Shown here: positions 6,042 to 64,000 of the stretch, in pieces
How positions within the stretch are numbered: position 1 is the stretch's first letter
How the letters are laid out: the number at the start of each line of letters is the position of its first letter
Source of the DNA: Oligoflexia bacterium
GTDB taxonomy: Bacteria; Bdellovibrionota; Bdellovibrionia; JABDDW01
Length of the DNA: 64,000 nucleotides
Direction: 5' to 3'
Assembly (NCBI GenBank): GCA_020847095.1
Contig: JADLCR010000088.1
Location: 46,871-110,870, forward strand
The notes under the pieces: model-generated
Seen by the model: the letters and a program-made list of their open reading frames with translations, nothing else
Told to the model about the DNA's origin: nothing
The model's database searches: none
Program-made: the position numbers and the translations under genes

Positions 6042-6688
6042 GGCCGAAACTCCTTTAATCCTCGTGCTGATCGCTGGCAACTTTCACAGCGCCCGCACGG
6101 TTGAGAGCCGCTTTGATAGCAACTCCAAACATGAGCAAGATCCACACCCAATTCAAATGCTCTGCCCACCATTTGGGTTTTATTGAGCTGGGTCGTAAAT
6201 GAAATGGCTTTAACTTGGCTCATTGTACTTAACTTGAAGGCAAGAGTTGTTTGATCCAAAAATGCTTGAGTGTTGTCTGGAAACGTAGCCGCTTCTTCAA
6301 TATTAAATCCAGGAATCACCGCTTGGGCTCCCAGGCTTTCAGCAAAGCTCGCCGCAATATTGAGAAAGACGCCGTTTCGGTTTGGAACCCAGACAGCCTT
6401 CGCCGATTCATCGGCCTCTCGTTTATCATCTAGATTTTTGAGCTCAGGCATGGCCGATTCATTGTTAACTAGTGCGGTTTTGGTAATGGAGGCCAACCAA
6501 GGAATTTCGATGACTCGATGGGGGGCTTTAAGTTTTTCGCAAAAAAAACGGGCCGCTTGAATTTCATTCTTAGCCGCCCGTTGCCCGTAATCGAATGTTA
6601 AGGCGAGAGTGACCTCCCCTTTTTGTTTAGCCTCGTAGAGGTTTACAACAGAATCCAGTCCACCACTGAGCAAAACGACAAACTTCAT
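6038..6688 (-). CDS. queC: 7-cyano-7-deazaguanine synthase
   Basis: PP-loop VVLLSGGLDS and the C-terminal zinc site CGRCESCQRSARG. Length 216 aa. Confidence 0.9.
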   Translation of the reverse strand: MKFVVLLSGGLDSVVNLYEAKQKGEVTLALTFDYGQRAAKNEIQAARFFCEKLKAPHRVIEIPWLASITKTALVNNESAMPELKNLDDKREADESAKAVWVPNRNGVFLNIAASFAESLGAQAVIPGFNIEEAATFPDNTQAFLDQTTLAFKLSTMSQVKAISFTTQLNKTQMVGRAFELGVDLAHVWSCYQSGSQPCGRCESCQRSARGLKEFRP

Positions 6689-7038
6689 GTTCCGGTTTTT
6701 TTAGTGGCTCTTCTGGTTTTTCTCTTGGTGAGTGGTTTAACTCTAGTGCGCACTTCCTTCACAATTTGATTAGCTTTCTTACGTGCTTCTTTCTCAAGAT
6801 GTTGTAACTGGTCGGCTACGTGGTTGAGTCGATTAATAACGTGTTTAACTTGAGGATCCTTCATGAAGTCCTGAGATTTAACAAATTCCACGAGCCCCTC
6901 AACTCGCTTGACGATTTCACTGTGACTGAGATCCCTCTGAGCTCGTTTTGCAATGCCTTCGATTTGCTTCTGAGCAGTTGCGGCTCGGGAGCGGATCGTC
7001 TTCTTGATTTCTTCGACATCTAATGAAATTCGAGCCAT
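6685..7038 (-). CDS. hypothetical coiled-coil protein with basic C-terminal tail, first gene of the queC operon
   Basis: The stop overlaps the queC start (ATGA). AGGAGG Shine-Dalgarno 7 nt upstream. Alpha-helical, K/R-rich tail. Confidence 0.55.
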   Translation of the reverse strand: MARISLDVEEIKKTIRSRAATAQKQIEGIAKRAQRDLSHSEIVKRVEGLVEFVKSQDFMKDPQVKHVINRLNHVADQLQHLEKEARKKANQIVKEVRTRVKPLTKRKTRRATKKTGT

Positions 7039-18166: not shown

Positions 18167-18169
18167 AGG

Positions 18170-20290
18170 TTACGTTTCCGATTCGCCTTCGCCCAGGGTC
18201 ACCGCCGCGCGCATTTGAAGCTCTTGTAACTCCAGTCGCTTGATTTCATCGCGGATATTCGCCGCTTCCTCAAACTCGAGTTTTTCCGATGCCTTTTTCA
18301 TGGCTTTGCGAAGTTTCACAATCTGTTTGGATATAGACTCTGGATCCACTGCATACAAAGTTTTTGGACTTGAGGCCTTCGAGGTTTTTGAGACTTTTTG
18401 GGTCGCGGTCGGTTCAAAGTACGGGGCGTCTGCCGAATAAATATCCTGGGTGCTTTGTGCGATGGCCTTTTTTATAGACTGAGGAGTAATGGAATGCTCT
18501 TCGTTATATTTCTTTTGAATTTCACGACGACGATTTGTTTCAGTAATGGCCTTATTCATTGAATCGGTCATTTTGTCAGCATAAAGAATGACTTTGCCAT
18601 TAAGGTTTCGTGCTGCCCGCCCAATTGTTTGTATTAAAGAACGCTCCGATCTCAAAAACCCCTCTTTATCCGCATCCAAGATGGTCACAAGACTCACTTC
18701 AGGAATATCAAGTCCCTCGCGAAGCAAGTTAATGCCAACCAAAACATCGAAAACTCCAAGTCTTAGATCCCTGATAATCTGCGATCGCTCCAAAGTTTCC
18801 ACGTCACTATGAAGATACTTTACTTTGACGCCTGCGCCTTGCAAATACTCAGTCAAGTCCTCGGCCATGCGTTTGGTCAAGGTCGTTACCAGAACTCTTT
18901 CACCCAACTGAACACGCGCTTTGGCTTCCTTTAAAAGGTCATCCACTTGAAATTTAGCTCCGCGAACTTCGACCTCTGGGTCAATCAACCCGGTGGGACG
19001 AATGATCTGCTCAACAATGAGACCTTGGCTGCGCTTGAGTTCATATGCCCCAGGTGTTGCCGAGACGTAAATCACCTTATCCATCAGCTTTTCAAATTCT
19101 TCGAAATTGAGAGGTCTATTATCCAACGCACTCGGTAGGCGAAACCCGTGCTCAACAAGAGTCATTTTTCTCGAACGATCGCCACGGTACATTCCACCCA
19201 CTTGAGGTACGGTTACGTGACTCTCATCAATAAACATGAGGTAATCTTTTGGAAAATACTCAATCAAGGTGGGGGGAGCTTCGCCCGGTTTACGCCCCGT
19301 AAAATGTCGCGAATAGTTTTCAATGCCGGGACAAAACCCAATCTCCTCGATCATTTCGATGTCATAATAAGTTCGTTGCTCAAGTCTTTGGGCCTCTACT
19401 AATTTCATTTGCCCTTTGAGTTCCTTAAGCCGTTCACGTAGCTCCTCTTGAATTGTCAAAATCGCTCTTTTACTTCTATTTTGATCCGTTACGTAGTGAC
19501 TCCCCGGATATATGGTCACTCTTTCCAGCTTTTGAAGCGTAACCCCACGGAGAGGGTCAACGACACTTAGGTTTTCTACATAGTCTCCAAAAAACTCTAC
19601 CCTCACGGCTCTTGCATCTTCATAGGGCGGGAATATCTCCACCACGTCTCCGCGAACGCGAAACGTTCCCCGATGAAAATCCACATCGTTTCGATTGTAT
19701 TGCATATCCACAAGCCGTCGCAATAACTCGTCACGCTTCAAGTCGCGCCCGACCTCAATAACTACAAGCATCCCTTCGTAGGCTTCAGGACTTCCAAGTC
19801 CGTAGATACATGAAACACTGGCCACGATAATAACATCGGTTCGGTCAAACAAAGAACGTGTTGCCGAATGGCGCATGCGATCGATCTGCTCATTGATTGA
19901 AGAGTCCTTTTCAATGAACGTATCAGTGCTCGGTATGTAGGCTTCAGGCTGATAGTAGTCGTAATAACTTACGAAATATTCAACAGCGTTGAGGGGAAAG
20001 AGCTGCTTGAACTCAGCATAAAGCTGACCAGCCAGAGTTTTATTGGGTGCTAAAATGATTGCAGGCCGCCCCATGCGTGCAATGGTGTGGGCCATTGTAA
20101 ATGTTTTTCCTGAGCCAGTTACACCCAAGAGCACTTGATGCTTTTGCCCGTGTTTTAAATTCTCAACGATCTGATCAATGGCCCTGGGTTGGTCGCCTTG
20201 TGGTTTATAGTCAGTAACGAGTTGAAATGGCCGACTCTCTCGAATCTTCTTTGAAATCTCAAATGGCGGGTTTATTTCTTCACTTCCCAT
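18170..20290 (-). CDS. uvrB: excinuclease ABC subunit B
   Basis: Walker A GVTGSGKT, helicase motifs and a C-terminal UVR domain. Length 706 aa. Confidence 0.95.
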
Positions 20291-27544: not shown

Positions 27545-27973
27545 ATGGGGACAAGAAATTCATTAATTTTACTCTCAGTGCTTCTCGCAACCAATTTGGC
27601 TCAAGCGAAACAAACCCAAAATGGAACTAGTTTGAGCTGCGCCAACAATCCTCAAGCACTGGTCGTAAAGTGCAAAGTCACTGAATCAACCGGACTCAGT
27701 CTTGGAGATGAAGTTGGCCTTTGCCAAAGCGAGGACGGCGAATTTTCAATTGCTCTTTCAAATAGCGAACAAGAAGATGTCTTTCCTGCCGAACTCATCC
27801 CCGTTCCAAGTGATGTGGACCTTCAGTTTCGGGCCGTTGTGGGAAAATCGTATATCCAACTCTCTGTGGTCAAAAGCCGGGGACCCTTTAACTCAAGTCT
27901 AGTCATTCATAACTACGACGGTAATACGACTGACTGGGGTTCCATGTCGCAGCTTCGTTGCAAGTCGAACTAA
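27545..27973 (+). CDS. hypothetical secreted protein
   Basis: Signal peptide MGTRNSLILLSVLLATNLAQA. Four Cys. No recognizable motif. Confidence 0.5.
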   Translation: MGTRNSLILLSVLLATNLAQAKQTQNGTSLSCANNPQALVVKCKVTESTGLSLGDEVGLCQSEDGEFSIALSNSEQEDVFPAELIPVPSDVDLQFRAVVGKSYIQLSVVKSRGPFNSSLVIHNYDGNTTDWGSMSQLRCKSN

Positions 27974-30063
27974 CCAATTTGAGCAAATAATAGTGCGGGT
28001 CGCCTTCCCTGCAGGATGGCGTTTTTAAGCTTTAAGTTTTCTGCTTTCTTAAGTTCTGGATCGGTCTCAATGACTTTGAATGCCGCTTTTCGAGCCAATG
28101 CCAGAAGCTCAACGTCACGAACTAGATTTGCCAACCTAAACCCTGGCAATCCCGATTGTCGGGTCCCCATAAACTCTCCCGGTCCGCGAATGAGAAGATC
28201 TTCTTCGGCAATTCGAAACCCGTCTTGAGTTTGTTCCATAACTGAAAGTCGCTTTTTCCCTTCATCGGAAAGTGCGTAACCCGATATCAAAATACAATAG
28301 CTCTTATGAGAACCTCGGCCAACACGCCCTCGTAGCTGATGAAGTTGAGCTAGGCCAAATCGCTCTGCGTGTTCAATGACCATGACCGTGGCATTGGGGA
28401 CGTCGACGCCGACTTCGACAACGGTAGTGGAGACCAAAACGTGAATCTCTCCTCGCTTGAATCGTCCCATTAACTCTTCTTTTTCTTGAGGCTTCAGTCG
28501 GCCGTGCACAAGACCCACTGTGTAGGGTTTTAGCTCTTCAGTGAGTTGAGCAGCGGCATCCGTTGCGTTTTGAAGATCCATTTTTTCGGTTTCTTCTACC
28601 AATGGATAAATCACATAGGCTTGACGGCCCTTGCCTATTTGATCGCGCACAAAATCGAAGACCTGTTTTTTCTTATTGTCGTGAACCACTCGCGTCGTGA
28701 TGGGAATTCGGCCCTGGGGTAATTCCTTAATCACACTGACGTCAAGATCACCATACACGCTCATAGCTAACGTTCGCGGAATGGGCGTTGCCGTCATGAT
28801 AAGCATATGGGGATGCCCACCCTTTTGCTTGAGTTGCGCCCGTTGTTTCACACCAAAACGATGCTGTTCATCGATAACGACAAGTCCTAAATTTTTAAAA
28901 CTCACATTTTCTTGAATCAAGGCGTGCGTTCCAATAACAAGTTGAATATTCCCCGATTCGACTTCATCTCTCATCTTTTGAGATTCTTTTTCTTTGAGTC
29001 CTCCCGACAAAAAGCCCAACTTGATTCCCAAATGGCTAAAAATTTCTTGGGCTTTTTTGAAATGCTGTTCAGCCAAAATTTCCGTTGGAGCCATAATGGC
29101 GACCTGAAAACCGTTATCAAGAACCAGTGCTGCTGACAAAAATGAAACGATGGTTTTTCCACATCCAACATCACCTTGCACAAGCCGGTGCATCGGATGA
29201 GGTTTCAATAGATCCCCCGTAATTTCAGCCAAGCAGCTTTCTTGACCATCGGTAAGTTTAAAAGGCAGGTCGGCACGAATCTTTTGGGCTAATCCAGCCA
29301 CTGGCTTCATCTGAAACCCTTTTTCTTTGATGGCACTTACTTTTGACCGAGCCAAAAGCAACTCCATCCAAAAAAATTCTTCAAAAATAAGGCGACGATG
29401 GTGGGGCGTTCGAAATTGTTGCCATGTTGTCACGTCTTCTTCACCTGGCTGATGAACTTTCATCAGCGATTCATTTAATGGAGGCAAATCAAAATCTTTC
29501 AAAATCCACTCAGGCAATGTTTCTTCAACCAACCCACCCGCATCGCCAATCACCGTTCCGACTATGCGACGAATGAGCTTTTGATTTAACCCTTCTGTTT
29601 CTGAATAAATGGGAAGCAATCCCGATTCGACTTCCTCGCTATCACCTTCGGTCAATCGCACCTCGGGGTGATGAATCTCAGTGACCCCACGGTAATTTTT
29701 AACTTCACCGGTTACTCGCACCTGAGAGCCTGGAGTAAAAGCTTTGAAATAGTCCTTAAAAGGAACACGAAACCACTTGCAGGCAATTCGTCCAGTAGCG
29801 TCTTTTACGACTAATTCATAAATCCTTCGTCTAGTTCGCCCCATTTGAATATCGCGACAAATGAGTATTTCCCCCACAAACGAAACCAACTGCCCCGGTC
29901 GAAGATCAGAAATCTGTTTGGCAGCCCGCCGGTCTTCATAGCTACGCGGAAACCATTGCAACACATCCCCGACCTTGTGGATGTCTTTTCGAGCAAGCAA
30001 AGCAGATATCTTGGGGCCTACCCCTTTGATAAATTGAACCGGTGTGTCGAGTTGAATTCCCAT
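27970..30063 (-). CDS. recG: ATP-dependent DNA helicase RecG
   Basis: Wedge/OB domain, Walker A GDVGCGKT, DEQHRFG and helicase C motifs. Length 697 aa. Confidence 0.92.
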   Translation of the reverse strand: MGIQLDTPVQFIKGVGPKISALLARKDIHKVGDVLQWFPRSYEDRRAAKQISDLRPGQLVSFVGEILICRDIQMGRTRRRIYELVVKDATGRIACKWFRVPFKDYFKAFTPGSQVRVTGEVKNYRGVTEIHHPEVRLTEGDSEEVESGLLPIYSETEGLNQKLIRRIVGTVIGDAGGLVEETLPEWILKDFDLPPLNESLMKVHQPGEEDVTTWQQFRTPHHRRLIFEEFFWMELLLARSKVSAIKEKGFQMKPVAGLAQKIRADLPFKLTDGQESCLAEITGDLLKPHPMHRLVQGDVGCGKTIVSFLSAALVLDNGFQVAIMAPTEILAEQHFKKAQEIFSHLGIKLGFLSGGLKEKESQKMRDEVESGNIQLVIGTHALIQENVSFKNLGLVVIDEQHRFGVKQRAQLKQKGGHPHMLIMTATPIPRTLAMSVYGDLDVSVIKELPQGRIPITTRVVHDNKKKQVFDFVRDQIGKGRQAYVIYPLVEETEKMDLQNATDAAAQLTEELKPYTVGLVHGRLKPQEKEELMGRFKRGEIHVLVSTTVVEVGVDVPNATVMVIEHAERFGLAQLHQLRGRVGRGSHKSYCILISGYALSDEGKKRLSVMEQTQDGFRIAEEDLLIRGPGEFMGTRQSGLPGFRLANLVRDVELLALARKAAFKVIETDPELKKAENLKLKNAILQGRRPALLFAQIG

Positions 30064-47735: not shown

Positions 47736-48107
47736 TTACTTTTTTGCTTTTGGCTGCCAAGAACCACATGAGCCTGCGGCCGCAACTAGCCCCGCGGTAA
47801 GCATTTGGCACTTACCCCATCCTGCATTTGATGCGGTGTAGAGTGCGCAATTATCGCAAATCATGTTTTTCTTTTTGAGGTCCTTAAATTGGGGATATTT
47901 TTTTAAGTCCATGGCCTTGGCGTCTTTTTTATAACCAAGGGCAGACGCAACCGCATCCGACTCAGACACTTCCTTTTCACCAGCTGGCAATGCCACTTCA
48001 CCTTTGGCCAATGCCCAAGTGCTTCCAATTGCCTGCACCACTGGGATCGCCGCAGTCACGATCAGGGCAGCTTTCAAGACTTCTCTCCTAGATGTTTCAT
48101 CTTTCAT
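47736..48107 (-). CDS. high-potential iron-sulfur protein (HiPIP) with Tat signal
   Basis: SRREVLKAAL twin-arginine signal. HiPIP Cys pattern CDNCALY...C...C. Confidence 0.8.
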   Translation of the reverse strand: MKDETSRREVLKAALIVTAAIPVVQAIGSTWALAKGEVALPAGEKEVSESDAVASALGYKKDAKAMDLKKYPQFKDLKKKNMICDNCALYTASNAGWGKCQMLTAGLVAAAGSCGSWQPKAKK

Positions 48108-48128: not shown

Positions 48129-48365
48129 TTATGTTGATTTGACAATCTCGAATCCAAAAAACTTTGCGATTTTCTTAGATCTTTTCTTCAGCTTTTTAGC
48201 CTGCTTTTTTAATTTCTTGCGCCGCTTTTTTACGGAAACTCTTGGTTCGACCAAAAATTCACCAGCAATTCCTGAGTCCCCTCTAAAAAATTGAACTAGC
48301 GGAATCGCCGCAAAGAAAAGCAAAATGGATTTGAGCAATTCCCGTCTTGAGCTTTCACTTTTCAA
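48129..48365 (-). pseudogene. truncated HiPIP-like paralog: Tat-type signal plus poly-Lys tail, HiPIP domain missing
   Basis: MKSESSRRELLKSILLFFAAIPLVQ parallels the HiPIP N-terminus, with DNA-level similarity (GCGGCGATYCC...). It continues into KKRRKKLKKQAKKLKKRSKK. Lacks the HiPIP Cys pattern (no Cys). Confidence 0.35.
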
Positions 48366-54524: not shown

Positions 54525-54977
54525 TTGTTAAGATTAAGTAAACTCACCGATTATGGAATTGTCCTGCTCACGCATTTTGCCAAAGACAGCGAATCGGTTT
54601 TGACATCAACGGACCTCGCAGAACGCACTCGAGTTCCCCTGCCTACGGTAGGAAAGCTTCTAAAGCTTCTGACCAAAGGCGAAATATTGGTTAGTCACCG
54701 GGGCAGCCTTGGGGGATATAAACTTTCGCGCGAACCTAGAGCAATTAGCGTTCATCAAGTAATTCATGCGCTTGAAGGGGCTCCACAGCTCACCGATTGT
54801 AGCGTTGGAGAATCTGGAAATTGCGATCTTGAAGGTGGATGCCCGGTTCAAGGACATTGGACAAAGCTCAATCTCGCTATTCGCAAGTCACTGGAAAACC
54901 TCACTCTTGAGGACCTCACCCAACCCCATGCACCGCGATTGGAAGTAATCAATGAGCAAAACACCATCGGCCATTAA
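54525..54977 (+). CDS. Rrf2 family transcriptional regulator (IscR/SufR-like)
   Basis: N-terminal [15 protein letters not shown] wHTH and the Cys cluster [15 protein letters not shown]. Directly precedes sufB. Confidence 0.85.
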
Positions 54978-56400
54978 AGATTTAACAGAAAAAGAATATC
55001 AGTATGGATTTGTCACGGCTCTAGATCAAGAAGTGATCAAGAAAGGGCTTAGTGAAGACGTTGTTCGTCTGATCTCTTCAAAAAAAAATGAACCAGAGTT
55101 TTTGTTGAATTGGAGACTCAAAGCCTATCGCCATTGGCTGACCATGACTGAACCAAATTGGTCGCAGGTGAAATATCCTAAAATTGATTATCAAGACATT
55201 ATTTATTATGCGGCTCCGAAAACAAAAAAAGACGGCCCAAAATCTCTCGACGAAATCGACCCCGAAGTACGAAAAATGTTCGATAAGTTGGGTATTTCGC
55301 TTGAAGAGCAAAAAAGACTTTCGGGAGTCGCAGTTGATGCTGTGGTTGACAGCGTGTCGGTGGCCACAACTTTTAAATCAAAATTAGCTGAGTTGGGTAT
55401 TGTGTTTTGTTCATTTTCTGAGGCGGTTCATAGCCACCCAGATTTGATTAAGAAATATTTGGGAACCGTCGTCCCATACACTGACAATTATTTTGTAGCC
55501 CTAAATTCTGCCGTTTTTAGTGATGGATCGTTTTGTTTTATTCCGAAGGGCGTTCGATGCCCGATGGAGCTTTCCACTTACTTCAGAATTAATGCCGCTG
55601 ATACTGGTCAATTTGAACGAACCCTCATCGTGGCCGAAGAGGGAAGCTACGTCAGCTACCTTGAGGGTTGCACAGCTCCCCGCCGAGACAAAAATCAACT
55701 TCATGCCGCGGTGGTTGAACTCGTCGCCCTCGATAATGCCGAAATCAAATACTCCACTGTTCAAAATTGGTACCCCGGAGATAAAGAAGGCAAGGGCGGA
55801 ATCTACAACTTTGTTACAAAACGCGGAATTTGCCGAGGCCACAAATCGAAGATTTCATGGACGCAGGTTGAAACCGGTTCAGCTATTACTTGGAAATACC
55901 CAAGCGTCATTTTGAAAGGCGATAATTCTGTCGGAGAATTTTATTCGGTTGCGCTGACAAACAATTACCAGCAGGCGGATACCGGAACAAAAATGATCCA
56001 CTTAGGCAAAAACACGTCATCAACTATAATCTCCAAAGGAATTTCAGCAGGTCGCGGTCAAAATACTTATCGAGGCCTGGTGCAAATTCAAAAAACCGCG
56101 ACCAACTCAAGAAACTACACTCAGTGTGATTCGCTCTTAATAGGTGATCGTTGCGGAGCTCACACGTTTCCTTACATCGAAGTCAAAAATTCGGGCTCCC
56201 AAGTAGAGCACGAGGCTTCAACTTCAAAAATTGGAGAAGATCAGATTTTTTATTGCAAGAGCCGCGGACTCTCTGAAGAAGACGCCGTGTCTCTCATTGT
56301 CAACGGATTTTGCAAAGACGTATTTAAGAAATTACCTATGGAATTTGCCGTAGAGGCTCAAAAGTTACTAGGCGTCAGCCTGGAGGGAAGCATTGGATAA
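54952..56400 (+). CDS. sufB: Fe-S cluster assembly protein SufB
   Basis: 482-aa SufB/SufD-family beta-helix sequence. First suf gene. Confidence 0.93.
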
Positions 56401-57157
56401 TCTAATTCTAAAAATCGAAAACCTAAATGTGAATGTCGCAGACCGCGCCATTTTGAATGGATTAAATCTCGAAGTCCGATCAGGTGAAGTTCACGCTATA
56501 ATGGGCCCCAACGGTTCAGGGAAAAGCACTTTGGCGTCGGTTCTTGCCGGAAGAGACTCGTACACGATCACTGGTGGATCCATTACTTATATGGGACAGG
56601 ATTTGACCACCATGGCCGCAGAAGACCGGGCAAGAAATGGAATTTTCTTGGGCTTTCAGTATCCGGTTGAAATTCCGGGGGTGGGTAACACCTATTTTCT
56701 CAAAGCCGCGCTCAATGCGATTCGCAAACACCGTGGCGAAAAAGAACTCGATGCTATGGAGTTCCTTAAAGTCGCAAAAGAGAAAATGAAAATTGTTCAA
56801 ATGGATCAAAAGCTCATGGAGCGCGCCGTTAACCAAGGCTTTTCGGGTGGCGAGAAGAAAAGAAATGAAATTTTCCAAATGAGCGTGCTTGAACCACGCC
56901 TTGCCATTCTCGATGAAACTGACTCAGGACTGGACATTGACGCTCTTCGCATTGTGGCCAACGGGGTCAACTCATTGCGCTCAAAAGATCGAGCAATCGT
57001 TCTCATCACCCATTATCAACGACTCTTGGATTACATCGTACCCGACCATGTTCATGTGTTAGCCGGAGGGCGAATCATTAAGTCAGGTAGCAGAGATCTC
57101 GCGTCCGAACTCGAAAAAACAGGCTACGAAGCCGTTGTGGCGGGAGCTGGACGATGA
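56393..57157 (+). CDS. sufC: Fe-S cluster assembly ATPase SufC
   Basis: Walker [10 protein letters not shown] and ABC signature FSGGEKKR. Confidence 0.93.
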
Positions 57158-58437
57158 GTTGGGCAGCTCAAATTGAGCAACACTCCCGGTCATCAAAAGC
57201 CAACTGGTTAAAAAATTTGCGCCAGCATGCTCTAAATGAATTTAATTCTAAAGGGTTACCCACGCGGCATATGGAACCATGGAAGCATACTAAACTGTCC
57301 CTGATTCCGTCGAATCCCTTGCAATGGCCGCAACAAAAAACAGAACTACTCGGTTTTGGACTAAAACTAGAGCCAAAGAAAATTCTGGATCATGTTTTAA
57401 AAGGCCTCGACTGCTATTTGGTGACATTCGTTGACGGACATATCAATGAGTCCCTGTCAAACTTCCCCAAGGATCAAGGAGTACAGTTTTCTTCAATCGG
57501 ACACCTAAGCGACGAAGATGTGGTCAGCTTTAAGACCAAGTCTTCTCAACACGGAGTTCATTCTATCAATGCAGCGCTTTTTCAAACTGGAATTTTTCTT
57601 AAGCTTGATAAAAACGCGGTTCTTACGAAGCCCTTTGTTCTTTTTCATTTAAGCTCGGAGAACAAGTCCCCAACGATGAAACATTTGCGGCATTTCATTG
57701 TGGCCGGCGAGAAATCTCAAGCAACCATTATTGAATTTCACATGGGGTTTAATTCAAATGACGAGTTTGAAACAAGTTACCTCAACTTAGTTGCTCAACC
57801 GGATTCTAATATTCTGCACTTCAAGATCCAAGAGGCGAGCATGTCGTCGACTCATATGGGCACATTGGACGCTAAACTCGAAGCTGGCGCAGTGCTCAGA
57901 AGCTATCTCCTCAACTGGGGCGGCCGCCTGGCGCGACAAGAATACTATGTGGCCCTAGATGGAAAAGGGGCAGATTGCTCACTTAAAGGACTTTTTTTCG
58001 GAAAGAACGAGCAAAACTCAGAGGTCATTATTGATCTTCAACATAACTCTTCAAATACCAAGAGCGAACAGAACTTCAAAGGCGTCCTTGAAGACAAGGC
58101 CCACGGAGTTTTTTATGGCAAAATTCTTGTGCAAAAGGACGCTCAGAAAATCAATGCTGACCAAAGCAACAAGAATATTCTATTGAGCGACGACGCCATC
58201 GTTAACACAAGACCCCAGTTAGAAATTTACGCTGACGACGTGAAGTGCAGTCACGGTGCAACGATTGGCCGCCTCGACGAAGGCGCGCTTTTTTACTTGA
58301 GAAGCCGCGGAATTGGGAAGAAAGAAGCAGAACATATGTTGCTCCTTGGCTTTGCTGAAGAAATATTAATTGATATCGATCAAAAATTAATCCCAATCAA
58401 AGACCGCCTTCATCACTTACTTGAGGCGACATTATGA
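57154..58437 (+). CDS. sufD: Fe-S cluster assembly protein SufD
   Basis: Length 427 aa. C-terminal SufBD signature region. Overlaps sufC and sufS. Confidence 0.85.
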   Translation: MSWAAQIEQHSRSSKANWLKNLRQHALNEFNSKGLPTRHMEPWKHTKLSLIPSNPLQWPQQKTELLGFGLKLEPKKILDHVLKGLDCYLVTFVDGHINESLSNFPKDQGVQFSSIGHLSDEDVVSFKTKSSQHGVHSINAALFQTGIFLKLDKNAVLTKPFVLFHLSSENKSPTMKHLRHFIVAGEKSQATIIEFHMGFNSNDEFETSYLNLVAQPDSNILHFKIQEASMSSTHMGTLDAKLEAGAVLRSYLLNWGGRLARQEYYVALDGKGADCSLKGLFFGKNEQNSEVIIDLQHNSSNTKSEQNFKGVLEDKAHGVFYGKILVQKDAQKINADQSNKNILLSDDAIVNTRPQLEIYADDVKCSHGATIGRLDEGALFYLRSRGIGKKEAEHMLLLGFAEEILIDIDQKLIPIKDRLHHLLEATL

Positions 58438-59657
58438 GTTTTGACGTCAACAAATTGAGGTCTCAATTTCCGATACTTGCGACTTCAGCAAGAGGGCGCC
58501 CGCTAGTTTATTTGGACAATGCGGCTACCACTCAAAAGCCATTGAGAGTTATCGAAGCTTGTCAAAACTATTATTTGAAAACTAATGCCAACGTTCATCG
58601 GGGAGTTCATTACCTCTCAGAGAAGGCCACTCAAGAATACGAAGACGTACGAAAAAAACTTACCAAGTTTATCAATGCTTCAAGTCACGAGGAAATCATC
58701 TTCGTAAGAGGCACCACTGAGGCTATTAATCTGATCGCAAGCAGTTTCGGGTCAGCCTTTTTAAAAACTGGTGACGAAATACTGATTACGGCTATGGAAC
58801 ACCACTCCAATATTGTTCCATGGCAGTTGGCTTGCCAAAAAGCAGGAGCAAAATTAGTCGTTGCTCCAATCACCAAACGAGGAGAGGTCGACGTCGCAAA
58901 GTTCAAAGAACTTTTAAGTCAGAAAACTCGGCTCGTGTCGTTTGTTCACCTTTCAAACGCATTAGGAACCCTAAACGACGCTCAAACACTCACTCGCTGG
59001 GCCAAAGAAATTGGTGCCCTCGTCCATATTGATTGCGCCCAATCCGTGAGTCACTTACCTGTCGATGTTCAAAATCTCGGCTGTGACTTCATTTCCTTTT
59101 CGTCTCATAAGATGTACGGACCAACAGGCGTTGGAGTTTTGTGGGGACGAAAGGATATTTTGAATAAATTGCCTCCGTATCAAGGTGGAGGCGATATGAT
59201 TCGAACTGTCACCTTCGAAAAAACTGAGTACGCCGATCTTCCACATAAATTTGAAGCTGGCACGCCGAACATTGAGGGAGTGATCGGGCTTGGCGCGGCC
59301 ATTGATTTCTTAAATGAAGTCGATCTCAAAAATATTCACGAGTATGAATCGGAACTTCTCAAAACGGCCATTATGAAGCTCTCAAAGGTTCCTGGGCTTC
59401 GATTTATTGGAGAGGCCGAATCTCGAGCCAGCGTCATCTCTTTTGTGCTCGAAGGAGTTCATCCCCACGACATCGGGACTATTGTGGACCAGCAGGGCGT
59501 CGCGATTAGAACAGGTCATCATTGTGCTCAACCGGTGATGGACTTCTTTGAAGTTCCGGCAACTTGCCGCGCATCCTTAGGCCTTTACAATACCGCAAGT
59601 GATATCGATTCACTGGTTGAAGCTCTTTTAACAGTCAGAAAGGTTTTCCGACGATGA
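58434..59657 (+). CDS. sufS: cysteine desulfurase SufS
   Basis: PLP-lysine motif SFSSHKMYGPTG and catalytic Cys region RTGHHCAQP. Confidence 0.92.
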   Translation: MSFDVNKLRSQFPILATSARGRPLVYLDNAATTQKPLRVIEACQNYYLKTNANVHRGVHYLSEKATQEYEDVRKKLTKFINASSHEEIIFVRGTTEAINLIASSFGSAFLKTGDEILITAMEHHSNIVPWQLACQKAGAKLVVAPITKRGEVDVAKFKELLSQKTRLVSFVHLSNALGTLNDAQTLTRWAKEIGALVHIDCAQSVSHLPVDVQNLGCDFISFSSHKMYGPTGVGVLWGRKDILNKLPPYQGGGDMIRTVTFEKTEYADLPHKFEAGTPNIEGVIGLGAAIDFLNEVDLKNIHEYESELLKTAIMKLSKVPGLRFIGEAESRASVISFVLEGVHPHDIGTIVDQQGVAIRTGHHCAQPVMDFFEVPATCRASLGLYNTASDIDSLVEALLTVRKVFRR

Positions 59658-60112
59658 GTCTAAGAGAGCTTTACCAAGAGGTTATTGTAGATCACTCCCA
59701 AAATCCTAGAAATTTTGGAGTGCTCGAGCGAGCCCAATACCAAGGGAACGGCCACAATCCGCTTTGTGGCGATCGCCTGACTGTCTTTTTAAATTTCAAA
59801 GACGACAAAGTTTCGGAAATAAAGTTTCAAGGGTCCGGCTGTGCTATCTCGACGGCTTCAGCTTCGATGATGAGCGAATCTCTTTTGGGACTTACAAAGA
59901 CACAAATCGAAAGTCTATTTGATAAATTTCACAAACTTGTGACCAGTAGCCTTGACGGTGGCAACGATTCAAACGATTCCGGAGATCTTGGAAAACTGGA
60001 GGTCTTTGCTGGAGTCGGTGAATTTCCGGCAAGAGTAAAGTGCGCCACTTTAGCTTGGCATACAGTGATGTCGGCAATTAAAGGGGCTCGGGAAGTAGCA
60101 AAAACGGAGTAA
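59654..60112 (+). CDS. sufU: SUF sulfur-transfer/scaffold protein SufU (IscU-like)
   Basis: CGD, GSGCAIS and a third Cys in KCATLAWH. Confidence 0.85.
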   Translation: MSLRELYQEVIVDHSQNPRNFGVLERAQYQGNGHNPLCGDRLTVFLNFKDDKVSEIKFQGSGCAISTASASMMSESLLGLTKTQIESLFDKFHKLVTSSLDGGNDSNDSGDLGKLEVFAGVGEFPARVKCATLAWHTVMSAIKGAREVAKTE

Positions 60113-60115
60113 AAA

Positions 60116-60664
60116 ATGACTAGAGAAACTGTGAAACTAACTCGAGATTGCGAGGCCACCCAAATTCCTAGTGGAGTTAAAGTTCGTCTTCAAGAATCCA
60201 CCGAAGTGACGATCACTCAAAGCCTCGGAGGCTCGTATACAGTCCTCGTAGAAGATGGATTTTTGGCGCGCATCGGAGCCGAAGACGCCGATGCTCTAGG
60301 CAAAGAAGTAGCTTCAATTGGAGTTACTGGAGACTCAAATGAGGTCACCAAAGAAAGTGTAGAGACCCAAGTTTGGGATCGCCTTAAAACCTGTTATGAT
60401 CCAGAAATTCCCGTCAACATCGTGGAATTGGGGCTCATTTATAACTGTTCCATCAAGCCCCTGGAAGATGGCTTCGAGGCGTTTATCGAAATGACCTTGA
60501 CGGCTCCAGGATGCGGAATGGGCCCGACTCTACAACTAGAAATTGAAGATAAGATTAGAAAAATTCCTGGAATTAAGAAGGCTCAAGTCATGCTTGTTTG
60601 GGATCCGCCGTGGGACCAAAGCATGATGTCCGAAGCCGCCCGTTTGCAATTGGGCTTCTTCTAG
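60116..60664 (+). CDS. sufT: DUF59/MIP18-family Fe-S assembly protein (SufT-like)
   Basis: C-terminal DUF59 core (DPEIPVNIVELGLIY...TAPGCGMG). Confidence 0.75.
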   Translation: MTRETVKLTRDCEATQIPSGVKVRLQESTEVTITQSLGGSYTVLVEDGFLARIGAEDADALGKEVASIGVTGDSNEVTKESVETQVWDRLKTCYDPEIPVNIVELGLIYNCSIKPLEDGFEAFIEMTLTAPGCGMGPTLQLEIEDKIRKIPGIKKAQVMLVWDPPWDQSMMSEAARLQLGFF

Positions 60665-60827: not shown

Positions 60828-61202
60828 ATGAAATCTGGCCTTATTGTTCTACTTATGATTCTTATTTCTGGCGCTGACGCGGTGGCCAGCGTTAAAGCTG
60901 CCATTGTTCTAATCAATTACTCTTCAGACCATGGCGGTGGTGCCACAGTCATTAAAGAAAACACCAAACTGCCGTACAATATGATTCTCGGCGGAAAGAC
61001 TTGCTATTTTCTGGATGCCAAAGAAAAGGTTCAGGGCACCTTGGAAAGAATGATTCGAAATCATCAGTTTGCAAATGACGCAAAAACAACTGTTGCCGTC
61101 ACTTTTAGCGAATTCGCCGCCAATCGGCAAGTAGCGACTGTCGTCATTCAAAATAACTCAGAAAGCATCACACTTGAATTTGAGCCCTGTGAACTCAATT
61201 AA
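60828..61202 (+). CDS. hypothetical secreted protein
   Basis: Signal peptide MKSGLIVLLMILISGADA. Confidence 0.45.
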   Translation: MKSGLIVLLMILISGADAVASVKAAIVLINYSSDHGGGATVIKENTKLPYNMILGGKTCYFLDAKEKVQGTLERMIRNHQFANDAKTTVAVTFSEFAANRQVATVVIQNNSESITLEFEPCELN

Positions 61203-61205
61203 TGA

Positions 61206-61847
61206 TTAAAGGCTAAATTCAAAATAGTCTGATGCATCGGTGCCTTCGCAAGTATAGACGCGAAATCCATGTTCATCACGCAGATCCGAATGCGGTTTTG
61301 CTGTAACTCTATGAGTGCCGCCGGTGAGCGGGCCTACTTTTATTAAGAATGGATTGCGGTTCATATTCCATGCCTGTGATGTCCCACTATAAGCAATTGA
61401 CGGTCCTCTCGGATCTTCGCAATGTCTGCCGCCACAAGAATCGTGTTCGGCATTGCAGGGGCCACCGCGCGTGTCACCATCAAAACGCTGAAACCGAGGA
61501 GTTGTGTCGATAACTACGTACCCACCGACCACAGGTTTCTCAACTGGCTGGTTATTCCCATCCATCACATTGAGAAACCCTTGGCTAACTCCCCATTTGA
61601 TCAAGCATGGGCAGGCGATCGGCGTAGAGCTCGGTGTCGGTGTCGCTGATGCGCTGACCGTTGGTGAGGGCAATGGTGTCAAAGTTGGCTGCGGAGATGG
61701 TGAAATTTGTTGAGTGCCATTTGACTGATTCTTGATTTCCGCCGGCAATTTAAAAGTAGAATCCTGGGCGCACCCCGAGCTCACAACAATTGCTACCAAA
61801 CCAATAGCAAATAAGATGACTGAATTGATATCCCATTTTCTTTCCAT
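61206..61847 (-). CDS. hypothetical secreted protein with Pro/Thr/Ser linker and Cys-rich C-terminal domain
   Basis: Signal peptide followed by SGCAQ. PT-rich linker. Ten Cys. Confidence 0.5.
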   Translation of the reverse strand: MERKWDINSVILFAIGLVAIVVSSGCAQDSTFKLPAEIKNQSNGTQQISPSPQPTLTPLPSPTVSASATPTPSSTPIACPCLIKWGVSQGFLNVMDGNNQPVEKPVVGGYVVIDTTPRFQRFDGDTRGGPCNAEHDSCGGRHCEDPRGPSIAYSGTSQAWNMNRNPFLIKVGPLTGGTHRVTAKPHSDLRDEHGFRVYTCEGTDASDYFEFSL

Positions 61848-62063: not shown

Positions 62064-63206
62064 TTAGACGTAAACGCCTTTTTTGATTTTTTCTACAATG
62101 ATCTTCTCGGGCATGATTGGATCTCGTGGATTTACAGTGAATAGGGCTTGCTGTTCGCAACGTCTCTTATTTTTCAGCAACCACTTAAGAATTTCCGAGA
62201 CCTCTTTATTTTTCTTATCTTTAAAGAAAGGGTCATTTTTAAGTGCGTCGTCGGCTTTCTTAAGCGCTCGCACCTCTTGAATGTCGTTTTCTTTGACTGG
62301 GTAATCACTGAGATCATACTTCTTGATGTCTTCAGGTAACACGCCCAAAAAGCGAACTTCTGGAGCCGAAAAATCTGAATTTCTAATCAAGCTCGAGGCA
62401 GATCCGGCTTTCAACGTTCGATAAATATTCTGCATGGTGTACGCGTCAAGATCTCCGAAAAAATAAATTGGAATCCGCAGCTCTTCTTGAATCAATCTCG
62501 ACCAACCGCGAACAGCATTACTAGGCACCCCTTGGGCACCCATTAAGATGGCATTGTTGCGCTTACAAAAGCCATTAGCCACCAATGTATTTGCGGTACC
62601 CTCAGATTCAACGATTAGACAAAAATCGATTTTCTTCTTGGCCTTGAGTTTCAAACTCTGTGGGCGATTCTTCGGCTGAAATGGCGTCGTCCCTAAGGTA
62701 CTTAAGTCGACGACCGCTTTGTCGCCATCTGGAAGCGTCTCTGTAACAACCAACTGTTGCGAATAGGTTTGACCGCCTCGATCATTGGCATAGCAATTGA
62801 GATCTTCGCGGTAACACTCCATCATCTCGCAAATAAAATCGATAATAGAATCACTCTCATCTTGGTCGGCGAAATCCAATGGTTTCAATTCGGGGTTATG
62901 TTTAATTTCACCTTTAGAAATGTAGTACAACTCTCTTTTGGTGTTCACAGCTCCGGTCTCAATGTTTCGAAGCAGGATCTCTAGCATAAAAATCGCCCGA
63001 GACATTTTTTGGACCGACGAAACATTCAGTTCCGTTCGGACCTTCTTCGGGCCGGGTGTTAGGTAGCCGCGTTTAAAATCATAGCGGCTGTTGTCGAGAG
63101 AGCACTTAGTTGCTTCAAGAACAGGCCTTCGAGCGTTTTCTAAATCGCGCAAAAGCATTGTGCAAAGTTCTTTAGATACCTTAACGACGTGTTCACCACG
63201 AGCCAT
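62064..63206 (-). CDS. top6A: type IIB DNA topoisomerase VI subunit A (Spo11/Top6A family)
   Basis: Catalytic-Tyr motif TKRELYYIS in the 5Y-CAP region. Toprim Glu LIVESEG and DxD YFFGDLD. Length 380 aa. Confidence 0.85.
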   Translation of the reverse strand: MARGEHVVKVSKELCTMLLRDLENARRPVLEATKCSLDNSRYDFKRGYLTPGPKKVRTELNVSSVQKMSRAIFMLEILLRNIETGAVNTKRELYYISKGEIKHNPELKPLDFADQDESDSIIDFICEMMECYREDLNCYANDRGGQTYSQQLVVTETLPDGDKAVVDLSTLGTTPFQPKNRPQSLKLKAKKKIDFCLIVESEGTANTLVANGFCKRNNAILMGAQGVPSNAVRGWSRLIQEELRIPIYFFGDLDAYTMQNIYRTLKAGSASSLIRNSDFSAPEVRFLGVLPEDIKKYDLSDYPVKENDIQEVRALKKADDALKNDPFFKDKKNKEVSEILKWLLKNKRRCEQQALFTVNPRDPIMPEKIIVEKIKKGVYV

Positions 63207-63218
63207 GATTCACTCCTC

Positions 63219-63956
63219 TTACGCGCTTTTCTCAGCTTGTTTTGATTTTTTCTTTGATGTGGAAACTTTTTTACCAACAGCCTTTTTGGCGACCTTTTTG
63301 GCGGCTTTTTTGCCGGTGGGCTTAGTTTCTACGACTTCGGCATTTTCATCCGCCTCAGTCGGAAGCTCTTGGGCCTCATCGCCTGATTCACCTAAGATCT
63401 TCTTTTGCTTAGCCGCAAGCTCTTCTTTCCCGATCATTGCAACTTTCAGCTCTTTTTCGGCCTCTCGACTTTCTCTACCCAAAAGCTTCATCAAACCTTC
63501 GGTAGCTTTCTTTTTACGAGCTTCGGGAGCCCCTAAGATGCGACAAACCCCGCCCACTAGAATTGGGCCAAATTGCTCGATATGCCGAATCTTGTTTTCC
63601 AAGTCGATAGCCCGGGCTTCTGCTCTTATATGTCTCGATAATTTTTGACCTGCCTGTATTAACGCCAGTCTTAGCTCATCAACAAGTTCATCTGAAGCAT
63701 CCACGGTCTCTTTAGATGCATTTTTAAACTTAATAAAGGGCGACACCAAACTCACGGCAATGACATATGGGCCTAAAGGCAACGAATCTTTCGGCTGTCC
63801 CAGCCCATAGGTTTTCCAATTAACACTTTCAATGGCCTTCACTATGGCACATCCGGATTTATCGAACTGAAGAGGAACCCGATTCGCAAAGCGAAGAACC
63901 TGCACAGAAGAATCAGAATGTTCTTGGCTCCGTTCTTGTAGCCTCGCCACGGCCAC
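63219..63956 (-). CDS. top6B: DNA topoisomerase VI subunit B, C-terminal transducer domain plus Lys/Ala-rich tail; N-terminal part not in this ORF
   Basis: VQVLRFANRVPLQFDKSGCAIVKAI...NWKTYGL matches the Top6B transducer region. The ORF begins at GTG. An in-frame stop lies at 63972-63974. The N-terminal GHKL/H2TH part must be upstream and in another frame. Confidence 0.72.
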   Translation of the reverse strand: MAVARLQERSQEHSDSSVQVLRFANRVPLQFDKSGCAIVKAIESVNWKTYGLGQPKDSLPLGPYVIAVSLVSPFIKFKNASKETVDASDELVDELRLALIQAGQKLSRHIRAEARAIDLENKIRHIEQFGPILVGGVCRILGAPEARKKKATEGLMKLLGRESREAEKELKVAMIGKEELAAKQKKILGESGDEAQELPTEADENAEVVETKPTGKKAAKKVAKKAVGKKVSTSKKKSKQAEKSA

Positions 63957-64000
63957 TTCAACAACGACAGGTTTAAAGTCACAAATCGTGGGCCTGCGAG

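What the first reader, a model, noticed from the sequence alone, without database searches (positions are those of the whole stretch)
62064..63956. Archaeal-type topoisomerase VI (top6B-top6A) in a bacterial chromosome, with a Lys/Ala-rich histone-like tail on Top6B
Top6A is unambiguous: RELYY catalytic-Tyr motif, Toprim E, and DxD. The Top6B transducer domain lies directly upstream.

Topo VI is rare in bacteria.

The Top6B C-terminus ends in about 60 residues of K/A/E-rich sequence (KKAAKKVAKKAVGKKVSTSKKKSKQAEKSA), like H1/HU-type DNA-binding tails. That is not typical of archaeal Top6B.
Basis: partly seen in the sequence, partly recalled or inferred. Interest (0 to 1): 0.6.

Follow-up and report, generated by a model that had tools for sequence, protein, structure and literature searches.

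The report
Bacterial topoisomerase VI with lysine tail
This is an ordinary, intact copy of the topoisomerase VI gene pair already known from Bdellovibrio and its relatives, and the lysine-rich end of its B subunit is a real, floppy tail that many bacterial versions of the enzyme share but that no paper I could search describes.

Summary
Window 62064-63206 (-) encodes a complete 380-aa Top6A, with the RELYY catalytic tyrosine (Y95) and Toprim residues E200, D252 and D254. Twelve bases upstream, the 3' part of top6B runs off the window end at 64000. It carries the transducer domain, the WKTY motif and the stalk. A continuous frame then ends in 58 residues predicted to be disordered: an acidic block followed by a block with 14 Lys in 36 residues.

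This gene pair belongs to a very large, highly conserved Bdellovibrionota clade. Top6A is 79-91% identical across it, and 417 species genomes were hit. Topo VI is already published for B. bacteriovorus and 16 other bacterial families.

The tail is not a frame error and not unique. About 60% of clade orthologues carry a tail with no sequence conservation but the same acidic-then-basic layout; one subclade lacks it. I infer non-specific DNA tethering next to the DNA gate.

Side finding: in Myxococcota Top6B, the equivalent basic tail ends in a conserved QLxL[IVL] motif resembling a beta-clamp-binding motif (75 of 120 proteins). The window protein lacks it.

Verdict: new member of a known kind; modest interest.

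The parts
62064..63206 (-). top6A, complete CDS of 380 aa including the stop codon. It encodes topoisomerase VI subunit A (winged-helix/5Y-CAP plus Toprim).
   Evidence: ORF list. Pfam TP6A_N 2.2e-14 and TOP6A-Spo11_Toprim 2.3e-40. NCBIfam NF003335 3.3e-124. PDB 1d3y_A 4.3e-37. Same length as orthologues, which are 379-383 aa.
62922..62936 (-). R91-E-L-Y-Y95 motif. Y95 is the predicted catalytic tyrosine.
   Evidence: Positions; codons read. Aligns to REAYY of M. jannaschii Top6A. That the second Tyr is the catalytic one is my own knowledge of 1D3Y (Y103).
62445..62609 (-). Toprim metal-binding acidic residues: E200 (62607-62609), D252 (62451-62453) and D254 (62445-62447).
   Evidence: Aligned with AIETSG and FTDGDPY of 1d3y.
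63207..63218 (-). 12-nt spacer between top6B and top6A, containing the Shine-Dalgarno sequence GAGGAG for top6A.
   Evidence: Sequence read directly. In most relatives the two genes overlap as ATGA, with the Shine-Dalgarno sequence inside the last top6B codons.
63219..64000 (-). top6B, 3' part only: 259 codons plus the stop. The gene runs off the window end, so the GHKL ATPase and H2TH parts are not in the window.
   Evidence: Full-length orthologues of 590-612 aa carry HATPase_c plus Topo-VIb_trans.
63600..63998 (-). Transducer domain (fragment residues 1-133).
   Evidence: Pfam PF09239 2.9e-35. AF2 pLDDT is mostly 80-95. Best Foldseek hit is M. mazei Top6B 9o0g_B at 8.6e-11.
63807..63818 (-). 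WKxY motif (W61-K-T-Y64), the DNA-arm contact element of Top6B.
   Evidence: Read from the translation. W61 and Y64 are invariant in alignment A1. The motif's role is described in PMC5922973 and PMC13040014.
63396..63692 (-). Stalk helix (residues 103-155) and return helix (159-201). Together they form the helical hairpin that, in archaeal structures, docks on the Top6A winged-helix domain.
   Evidence: AF2 secondary structure H103-155 and H159-201 with pLDDT 83-95. The docking role is inferred from M. mazei structures (PMC13040014).
63330..63395 (-). Acidic block of the tail (residues 202-223, LGESGDEAQELPTEADENAEVV; 8 D/E, 0 K/R).
   Evidence: pLDDT falls from 60 to 45 across this block and no secondary structure is predicted.
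63222..63329 (-). Basic Lys/Ala block of the tail (residues 224-259, ETKPTGKKAAKKVAKKAVGKKVSTSKKKSKQAEKSA; 14 K, 6 A, 2 E), predicted disordered.
   Evidence: pLDDT is 37-41. No Pfam family matches the tail. Orthologue tails share the same composition: K 31%, A 17%.
63281..63312 (-). 12-nt tandem repeat, 2.7 copies, encoding the (A/V)AKK repeats inside the basic block.
   Evidence: Tandem Repeats Finder, score 50, 90% matches.

Best explanation
The locus is a translationally linked top6B-top6A operon. It encodes a functional A2B2 type IIB topoisomerase (topo VI) of the Bdellovibrionota clade.

Shown: both subunits have the family's domains and catalytic residues, and they are intact. They sit among core chromosomal genes and belong to a very strongly conserved, phylum-wide orthologue group.

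Inferred from the literature: the enzyme works as in archaea. An ATP-driven B-subunit gate captures a T-segment. A Tyr95/Toprim-Mg2+ DNA gate in Top6A cuts the G-segment with a 2-nt stagger. In these bacteria it most likely serves as the dedicated decatenase and relaxase alongside gyrase.

The C-terminal 58 residues of Top6B form an intrinsically disordered, charge-segregated appendage: an acidic spacer followed by a block of net charge +12. It leaves the helical hairpin that docks on the Top6A winged-helix domain, so it sits beside the bent G-segment.

Inferred: the basic block acts as a non-specific electrostatic DNA tether. It would raise local DNA affinity and dwell time, as the lysine repeats of actinobacterial TopA do. 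The acidic block would act as a spacer or an intramolecular damper.
For: Family assignment.

Catalytic residues.

Full-length GHKL-bearing Top6B in the nearest relatives and in clade members.

Conservation and breadth: Top6A is 79-91% identical in the 120 best of at least 5441 database proteins, and in 80 of 80 retained GTDB species loci, all from Bdellovibrionota.

Native composition: GC 0.449 against 0.41-0.49 for the window. Housekeeping neighbours. No match to any defence-system model.

Tail disorder: pLDDT below 50 and no secondary structure for residues 213-259, while residues 1-201 are confidently folded.

Tail conservation by composition, not sequence: 51 of 79 scored tails (78 orthologues plus the window) are 47 aa or longer. 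Of those, 47 have a net charge of at least +4 in the last 30 residues, and 38 also have a non-positive middle section. Median identity to the window is 38% in the tail against 74% in the adjacent core.

On an NJ tree the tail maps as the root state, with at least 6 changes, mostly losses in one subclade.

Published context: topo VI in B. bacteriovorus, and loss of topo IV in most topo VI-bearing bacteria (PMC11302465; PMC11318664). Top6B stalk and WKxY contacts with the DNA arms (PMC13040014; PMC5922973). Lysine repeats confer processivity on Streptomyces TopA (PMC5714199).
Against: No activity or DNA-binding data exist for any bacterial topo VI tail.

28 of the 79 scored tails end in a short acidic tail with no basic block, so the basic tail is dispensable for the core enzyme.

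The basic block contains a 12-nt slippage-type repeat, which is compatible with neutral low-complexity expansion.

The GHKL half of this particular gene is outside the window, so its integrity is not verified.

The type II topoisomerase complement of the source genome (gyrase, topo IV) could not be examined.

The NJ tree is midpoint-rooted and built from slowly evolving proteins, so 'ancestral tail' is only suggestive.
Confidence: 0.7

Rival explanations
1. The tail is functionally neutral low-complexity sequence. It would be generated by replication slippage of AAG/GCC-rich repeats and tolerated because it hangs off the end of a folded protein.
For: There is a 12-nt tandem repeat inside the basic block. 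Tail length ranges from 23 to 307 aa with almost no sequence conservation. About a third of orthologues lack the basic block. Even relatives with 90-91% Top6A identity have quite different tails.
Against: The polarity is kept despite sequence turnover: acidic first, basic last, with 47 of 51 long tails at net +4 or more in the last 30 residues. Presence follows phylogeny rather than being random. An independent bacterial Top6B clade, the Myxococcota, also keeps basic tails, there with a conserved terminal motif.
Confidence: 0.2
2. The tail is mainly a flexible tether to a protein partner rather than to DNA. The partner could be the beta sliding clamp, as in other bacterial Top6B lineages, or a nucleoid protein. 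The window version would be a degenerate or re-purposed form of that tether.
For: 75 of 120 Myxococcota Top6B proteins end in a basic tail followed by Q-L-x-L-[IVL] within the last 20 residues, against 0.08 expected from shuffles. One of them lies on a Polyangiaceae chromosomal contig. The same motif type is sporadic inside the Bdellovibrionota clade: L054 QMELF*, L065 QADLF, P0396 QLELLE*, P0202 QLALL*. That is 15 of 350 sequences against 0.99 expected.
Against: The window protein ends ...KKKSKQAEKSA and has no hydrophobic clamp-type motif. Its closest relatives lack one too. The conserved [KR]EK[ST]A ending of relatives is explained by the Shine-Dalgarno sequence of top6A lying inside those codons. 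The clamp reading itself rests only on resemblance to the consensus QL[SD]LF / QLxLxL, which I recall from memory. No binding data exist and no paper was found.
Confidence: 0.1
3. The pair is not a housekeeping topoisomerase. It could be a Spo11-like or defence-type Toprim nuclease (Wadjet/MksG-, Gabija- or Topo VIII/Mini-A-like), or a recent horizontal import.
For: Toprim/5Y-CAP modules are reused in such systems (PMC13040014). There is no conserved synteny around the pair.
Against: No PADLOC model matches either protein. Subunits A and B are separate, adjacent and translationally coupled, as in canonical topo VI. The best database matches are topo VI equivalog models and archaeal topo VI structures. 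Base composition is native. The flanks are core genes, with no integrase, plasmid or phage genes among those I annotated. The 79-91% identity across a whole phylum argues for long-term purifying selection.
Confidence: 0.03

Closest known systems
Topoisomerase VI of Bdellovibrio bacteriovorus (Bd2864, with the adjacent Bd2865) and other Bdellovibrionota
   Same: Same orthologue group. The 80 best genome hits are all Bdellovibrionota with 79-88% Top6A identity. The order is the same, top6B then top6A. Its presence is already noted in reviews and surveys (PMC11318664; PMC11302465).
   Different: The source organism is different: no exact match is on record and the flanks share no synteny. Whether the B. 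bacteriovorus Top6B carries the basic tail was not checked. That Bd2865 is its Top6B is my reading of the review's 'Top II (Bd2865)'. The cited papers, as far as I read them, do not discuss such tails.
Archaeal topo VI (M. mazei 2q2e/9o0g, S. shibatae 2zbk, M. jannaschii Top6A 1d3y)
   Same: Domains, catalytic Tyr, Toprim acidic residues, WKxY motif, and the transducer-stalk-hairpin architecture.
   Different: Archaeal Top6B ends in one or two helices or in an Ig-like globular CTD (PMC9348778). Here the hairpin is followed by a disordered acidic-then-basic tail and no Ig-like domain. Identity in the Foldseek structural alignment to archaeal Top6B chains is only 24-30%.
Myxococcota (Polyangiaceae-type) Top6B
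   Same: Bacterial, chromosomal top6B-top6A pair. It also has a long, disordered-looking basic C-terminal tail.
   Different: Only 36-41% identical in the transducer. The tail usually ends in the conserved QLxL[IVL] motif (75 of 120), which the window protein lacks.
Lysine-repeat C-terminal domain of actinobacterial topoisomerase I (Streptomyces/Mycobacterium TopA)
   Same: A Lys/Ala-rich, low-complexity C-terminal extension on a topoisomerase. In TopA it stabilises the enzyme-DNA complex and raises processivity (PMC5714199).
   Different: Unrelated enzyme class (type IA) and no homology. TopA's repeats are much longer. The analogy is functional only and is not tested here.
Histone H1 C-terminal domain and bacterial H1-like or HU tails
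   Same: K/A(/P/S)-rich composition with AKK-type repeats.
   Different: No H1 or HU globular domain, and no Pfam hit for the tail. It is preceded by an acidic block and attached to an enzyme.
Topo VIII / Mini-A and Spo11-TopoVIBL
   Same: Type IIB fold family.
   Different: Topo VIII is a fused B-A protein on plasmids and integrated elements (PMC7671362, listed; PMC11302465). Here there are two separate genes in a core chromosomal context, and the best matches are topo VI proper.

Membership tests
Topoisomerase VI subunit A (Top6A/Spo11 family) | N-terminal winged-helix (5Y-CAP) domain with the catalytic tyrosine in an R-E-x-Y-Y context | tested here: met
   Pfam TP6A_N 2.2e-14. R91-E-L-Y-Y95 aligns to REAYY of 1d3y.
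Topoisomerase VI subunit A (Top6A/Spo11 family) | Toprim domain with the conserved Glu and DxD metal ligands | tested here: met
   Pfam PF21180 2.3e-40. E200, D252 and D254 are present and aligned.
Topoisomerase VI subunit A (Top6A/Spo11 family) | Score above the curated equivalog threshold | tested here: inconclusive
   NF003335 scores 414.6 bits against a 424-bit cut-off, E 3.3e-124. This is marginally below the cut-off; all other models score far lower.
Topoisomerase VI holoenzyme (distinct from Spo11-only or defence nucleases) | A Top6B partner gene adjacent to, and co-oriented with, top6A | tested here: met
   The top6B stop lies 12 nt upstream of the top6A ATG, with a Shine-Dalgarno sequence between them. 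The arrangement is the same in all 80 loci.
Topoisomerase VI subunit B | Transducer domain with the WKxY motif and a long C-terminal stalk helix | tested here: met
   PF09239 2.9e-35. WKTY at residues 61-64. Stalk helix 103-155 in the AF2 model. Foldseek hit to M. mazei Top6B at 8.6e-11.
Topoisomerase VI subunit B | GHKL (Bergerat-fold) ATPase domain and H2TH domain | not testable with these tools
   This part of the gene lies beyond position 64000, and no exact match to the source contig is on record. Orthologues, including the nearest ones, have HATPase_c.
Topoisomerase VI subunit B, archaeal group II type | Globular Ig-like C-terminal domain after the transducer | tested here: not met
   The AF2 model shows no folded domain after residue 201; residues 213-259 have pLDDT below 50. 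This agrees with PMC11302465 for bacterial Top6B.
Histone H1 / HU-type DNA-binding tail | Homology to a linker-histone or HU domain, or to a recognised H1-like repeat family | tested here: not met
   Pfam scan of the 83-residue tail region found no families. Only the composition is similar.
Beta-sliding-clamp-binding proteins (C-terminal QL[SD]LF / QLxLxL motif) | A clamp-type penta- or hexapeptide near the C-terminus | tested here: not met
   The window tail ends KSKQAEKSA, and the regex search found no motif. The motif is present in Myxococcota Top6B and in a few clade members. The consensus is recalled from memory.
Anti-phage or plasmid defence Toprim nucleases (Wadjet JetD/MksG, Gabija, etc.) | Match to defence-system protein models | tested here: not met
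   PADLOC found no families for either protein.
Topo VIII / Mini-A | Fused B-A polypeptide, or a lone short A subunit, on a plasmid or integrated element | tested here: not met
   There are two separate genes, and the flanks are housekeeping genes.

The most novel reading that the evidence does not exclude
The disordered C-terminal tail may be a general, previously undescribed adaptation of archaeal-derived topo VI to bacterial cells. On this reading it is a flexible tether coupling the enzyme to the replisome or nucleoid.

In Myxococcota the tail would end in a beta-clamp-binding motif, placing the decatenase at replication forks. In most Bdellovibrionota, including this window, the clamp motif would be replaced by a purely electrostatic lysine-rich DNA anchor.

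This would parallel the Ig-like C-terminal domain that gyrase-bearing archaea added to Top6B.
Probability: 0.2. Interest if true: 0.55.

Novelty: new member of a known kind. Interest (0 to 1): 0.3.

Why it matters
The gene pair itself adds nothing new. Topo VI in Bdellovibrio-like bacteria is published and is annotated in thousands of database entries.

The modest value lies in the tail. The searchable papers do not describe bacterial Top6B tails. Here the tail proves to be a recurrent, compositionally conserved, charge-segregated disordered extension. It sits where the B subunit meets the DNA gate.

If it tethers the enzyme to DNA, or via the clamp-like motif seen in Myxococcota to the replisome, it would help answer an open question raised by Allen and Maxwell (2024): what topo VI does in bacteria, and how an archaeal enzyme was fitted into bacterial chromosome biology. 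Both ideas are directly testable with tail-deletion enzymes and peptide-DnaN binding.

Tried and rejected
1. Exact-sequence look-up of the window Top6A, to recover the contig beyond 64000: nothing on record. The missing top6B 5' part was therefore only inferred from relatives.

2. Searching with the 259-aa Top6B fragment returned almost only partial proteins. That was useful for an alignment but not for full-length statistics, so I used ORFs from the 80 genome loci instead.

3. Synteny: none of 11 window proteins flanking the pair (sufRBCDSUT and the small or unannotated ORFs next to the pair) has a counterpart within 8 kb of top6BA in any of the 80 loci. No flanking family occurs in more than 22 of the 80 loci. 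So there is no conserved accessory gene.

4. Pfam on the tail alone: no family. PADLOC on both proteins: nothing.

5. I considered the conserved [KR]EK[ST]A C-terminal ending of relatives as a peptide motif. I rejected it because those codons (AAGGAGAAG and similar) are the Shine-Dalgarno sequence of the overlapping top6A.

6. Frame-error reading of the tail: rejected. The frame is continuous from the transducer domain to the stop, and the same layout is seen in dozens of orthologues.

8. Cluster look-up gave no taxon names for the outgroup tails. One contig look-up did: Polyangiaceae.

9. Gyrase and topo IV: none among the ten largest ORFs of the window.

10. Literature searches for lysine-rich Top6B tails, and for a topo VI-sliding clamp link, found nothing relevant.
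Full report
**1. What is in the sequence**

On the minus strand, 62064..63206 is a complete 380-aa ORF. It matches the two Pfam domains that make up Top6A/Spo11: TP6A_N at 2.2e-14 and TOP6A-Spo11_Toprim at 2.3e-40. It also matches the NCBIfam topo VI subunit A model NF003335 at 3.3e-124. The score is 414.6 bits, just under the curated 424-bit cut-off.

- R91-E-L-Y-Y95.
- E200 in IVESEG.
- D252 and D254 in FGDLDAY.

These align with REAYY, AIETSG and FTDGDPY of the M. jannaschii Top6A crystal structure 1d3y (E 4.3e-37). I checked the codons against the raw sequence.

Twelve bases upstream, across a GAGGAG Shine-Dalgarno sequence, lies the stop codon (63219-63221) of a second minus-strand frame. 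That frame stays open to the window end. Its 259 readable residues start with the Topo-VIb transducer domain (PF09239, 2.9e-35, residues 1-133). They contain the WKxY motif as WKTY at residues 61-64.

The finding's upper coordinate, 63956, is just the first GTG of an ORF truncated by the window. The gene continues beyond 64000.

**2. The tail**

The frame runs without interruption from the transducer domain to the stop, so the tail is not a mis-called frame.

An AlphaFold2 model was built with 39 orthologue fragments. It gives:
- a confident transducer sheet;
- a long stalk helix (residues 103-155) and a return helix (159-201);
- residues 213-259 with pLDDT below 50 and no secondary structure.

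The folded part finds M. mazei Top6B as its best PDB match (9o0g_B, 8.6e-11). There is no Ig-like C-terminal domain.

The disordered part has two blocks:
- Residues 202-223 are acidic (8 D/E, no K/R).
- Residues 224-259 are basic (14 K, 6 A, 2 E).

The basic block contains a 12-nt tandem repeat that encodes (A/V)AKK units. Pfam sees no family in the tail. The resemblance to H1/HU tails is therefore compositional only.

**3. Where it belongs**

The window is ordinary bacterial chromosome. It holds recG, uvrB, uvrC, recJ, secD and gltX. A complete sufR-sufBCDSUT operon ends about 1.4 kb from top6A. GC content is flat across the window, and the topo VI region (0.449) is not an outlier.

Top6A has at least 5441 relatives in the large protein collection, and the best 120 are all 81-91% identical. 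A scan of one genome per GTDB species found 417 species with a confirmed relative. The 80 best are all Bdellovibrionota (Oligoflexia, Bdellovibrionia, Bacteriovoracia, including the cultured Oligoflexus tunisiensis), at 79-88% identity.

In the library clustered at 50% identity, the Top6B transducer shows a sharp gap between this clade (59-80% identity) and everything else (54% or less, full-length proteins 44% or less).

Full-length clade Top6B proteins carry the GHKL ATPase domain as well as the transducer. So do those of the closest relatives, with 90-91% Top6A identity and Top6B of 590 and 612 aa. By homology, about 340 codons of the window gene lie outside the window.

No neighbouring gene is conserved, so the pair is a self-contained two-gene unit. 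In most relatives the genes overlap as ATGA, with the top6A Shine-Dalgarno sequence (AAGGAGAAG and similar) inside the last top6B codons. This explains the recurrent '[KR]EK[ST]A' C-terminal ending without invoking a peptide function.

**4. What is already known**

Topo VI in B. bacteriovorus (Bd2864) is mentioned in a 2023 review (PMC11318664). Allen and Maxwell (2024) list Pseudobdellovibrionaceae among 17 bacterial families with topo VI. They report the following (PMC11302465):
- All these families have gyrase and most lack topo IV.
- One bacterial Top6A cluster lies near the Methanococcales, which fits the best PDB hit here.
- Bacterial Top6B models lack the Ig-like CTD.
- The role of bacterial topo VI is still open.

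Villain et al. (2022) showed that the C-terminus is the most variable part of archaeal Top6B. It is one or two helices in gyrase-less archaea and an Ig-like domain in gyrase-bearing ones (PMC9348778).

I found no paper describing lysine-rich or disordered tails on bacterial Top6B.

**5. How general the tail is**

I extracted the frame upstream of top6A in all 80 loci. I measured the sequence following the conserved GLxKLLGR[DE] motif in 79 sequences, the window's included (two loci lacked the motif).

| Measure | Result |
|---|---|
| Tail length | 23-307 aa, median 74 |
| Short tails (43 aa or less), net acidic or neutral | 28 of 79 |
| Long tails (47 aa or more) | 51 of 79 |
| Long tails with net charge at least +4 in the last 30 residues | 47 of 51 |
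| Long tails that also have a non-positive middle section | 38 of 51 |
| Composition of the last 36 residues | K 31%, A 17%, E 10%, S 9%, P 6% |
| Median identity to the window, tail vs adjacent 175-residue core | 38% vs 74% |

On an NJ tree of Top6A plus the Top6B core, the basic tail maps as the root state. It shows at least 6 changes, chiefly losses within one large subclade. The window groups with L001, an Oligoflexia MAG whose tail is 307 aa long.

The feature is therefore recurrent and conserved in composition, but dispensable.

**6. Mechanism (inferred)**

In M. mazei structures, the helical hairpin after the stalk docks on the Top6A winged-helix domain. The stalk and WKxY loop contact the arms of a 74-bp bent G-segment (PMC13040014; PMC5922973).

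A tail leaving that hairpin starts next to the DNA gate. A 36-residue block of net charge +12 on a 22-residue acidic spacer could reach the G-segment arms or an incoming T-segment.

The nearest functional precedent is the lysine-repeat C-terminal domain of actinobacterial TopA, which stabilises the enzyme-DNA complex and confers processivity (PMC5714199).

I therefore favour a non-specific electrostatic DNA tether. The acidic block would act as a spacer or an intramolecular damper. None of this is tested.

The main rival is neutral low-complexity drift. The slippage repeat, the rapid turnover and the tail-less subclade support it. The conserved polarity and the phylogenetic structure argue against it.

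**7. A side finding that bears on the tail**

Several Top6B tails outside and inside the clade end in Q-[LMA]-x-[LM]-[FLIV] (15 of 350 sequences against 0.99 expected). Examples are ...KGKGQMELF* (L054) and ...AEQLSLL* (P0268).

I followed this up with the core of one such protein. It sits on a Polyangiaceae contig next to top6A and among housekeeping genes.

Of the 120 best Myxococcota-type Top6B proteins, 75 end in a basic tail followed by QLxL[IVL] within the last 20 residues. Typical endings are ...KKGEQLKLID*...DGQLDLVK* and ...EQLSLI*. Shuffles give 0.08 expected and at most 2. About ten more have hexapeptide-like variants.

This matches the bacterial beta-sliding-clamp-binding consensus QL[SD]LF / QLxLxL, which I recall from memory. 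It suggests that in Myxococcota the tail tethers topo VI to the replisome. I found no publication on this.

The window protein ends ...KKKSKQAEKSA, and neither it nor its nearest relatives have the motif. For this locus, then, the clamp reading is at best historical.

**8. Verdict**

It is a real topo VI in a bacterial chromosome, but in a lineage where that is the published norm.
- The tail is real, disordered and undescribed, yet widespread among bacterial Top6B and only compositionally histone-like.
- Novelty: a new member of a known kind.
- Interest: about 0.3. This rests mostly on the tail as a testable handle on what topo VI does in bacteria.
- The clamp-motif side finding in Myxococcota is more interesting, but it lies outside this window.

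Noticed in passing
L081:10001-12001 (Polyangiaceae MAG) and proteins P0397-P0515: In Myxococcota-type Top6B, 75 of 120 proteins end in a basic tail followed by QLxL[IVL] at the extreme C-terminus (for example KKGEQLKLID*, DGQLDLVK*). Shuffles give 0.08 expected. This looks like a beta-sliding-clamp-binding motif on a type IIB topoisomerase. No paper was found.
   Followed up: partly
L054, L065, L077, L009, L055, L060; P0396, P0202, P0189, P0198: Inside the Bdellovibrionota clade, clamp-like endings are sporadic (QMELF*, QADLFEK*, QAELF, QLELLE*, QLALL*). A QE[AVT]FDFAK variant occurs in one small subclade. The window protein has none.
   Followed up: partly
window 62064-63206 versus L001-L080: Top6A is unusually conserved, at 79-91% identity across classes of a phylum. 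The adjacent Top6B core is at about 74% (median), and there is no shared synteny. This suggests very strong purifying selection, though I did not exclude gene exchange within the phylum.
   Followed up: partly
L002-L025 and others, last ~20 nt of top6B; window 63207-63236: In most relatives top6B and top6A overlap as ATGA, and the top6A Shine-Dalgarno sequence (AAGGAGAAG) is read as Lys-Glu-Lys in Top6B. This creates a pseudo-conserved '[KR]EK[ST]A' C-terminus. The window has a 12-nt spacer with its own GAGGAG and still encodes ...AEKSA.
   Followed up: yes
window 54525-60664 (+): A complete SUF iron-sulfur cluster operon (sufR, sufB, sufC, sufD, sufS, sufU, sufT) ends about 1.4 kb from top6A. 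It is not syntenic with top6BA in any of the 80 related loci.
   Followed up: yes
window 60828-61202 (+) and 61206-61847 (-): Two ORFs lie between the SUF operon and top6A and match no NCBIfam family. ORF 61206-61847 (213 aa) has a signal-peptide or lipoprotein-like N-terminus and a Pro/Ser/Thr-rich linker. It lies 216 nt downstream of top6A on the same strand, with terminator-like hairpins between 61855 and 61910.
   Followed up: no
window 16262-20290 (-), 27970-30063 (-), 7116-8813 (-): DNA-repair genes are concentrated in this window: uvrC and uvrB adjacent to each other, plus recG and recJ.
   Followed up: no
window 47736-48107 (-) and 48129-48365 (-): Two tandem small ORFs share a similar N-terminus resembling a Tat signal (SRRE(V/L)LKA...). 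The second is shorter and ends in an extremely basic stretch (17 K/R in 30 residues). It may be a decayed paralogue. No NCBIfam family matched the first.
   Followed up: no
window 6685-7038 (-): A 117-aa ORF upstream of a queC-like gene has a strongly basic C-terminal tail (14 K/R in 30 residues). Apart from Top6B, it is the only ORF over 100 aa in the window with such a tail.
   Followed up: no
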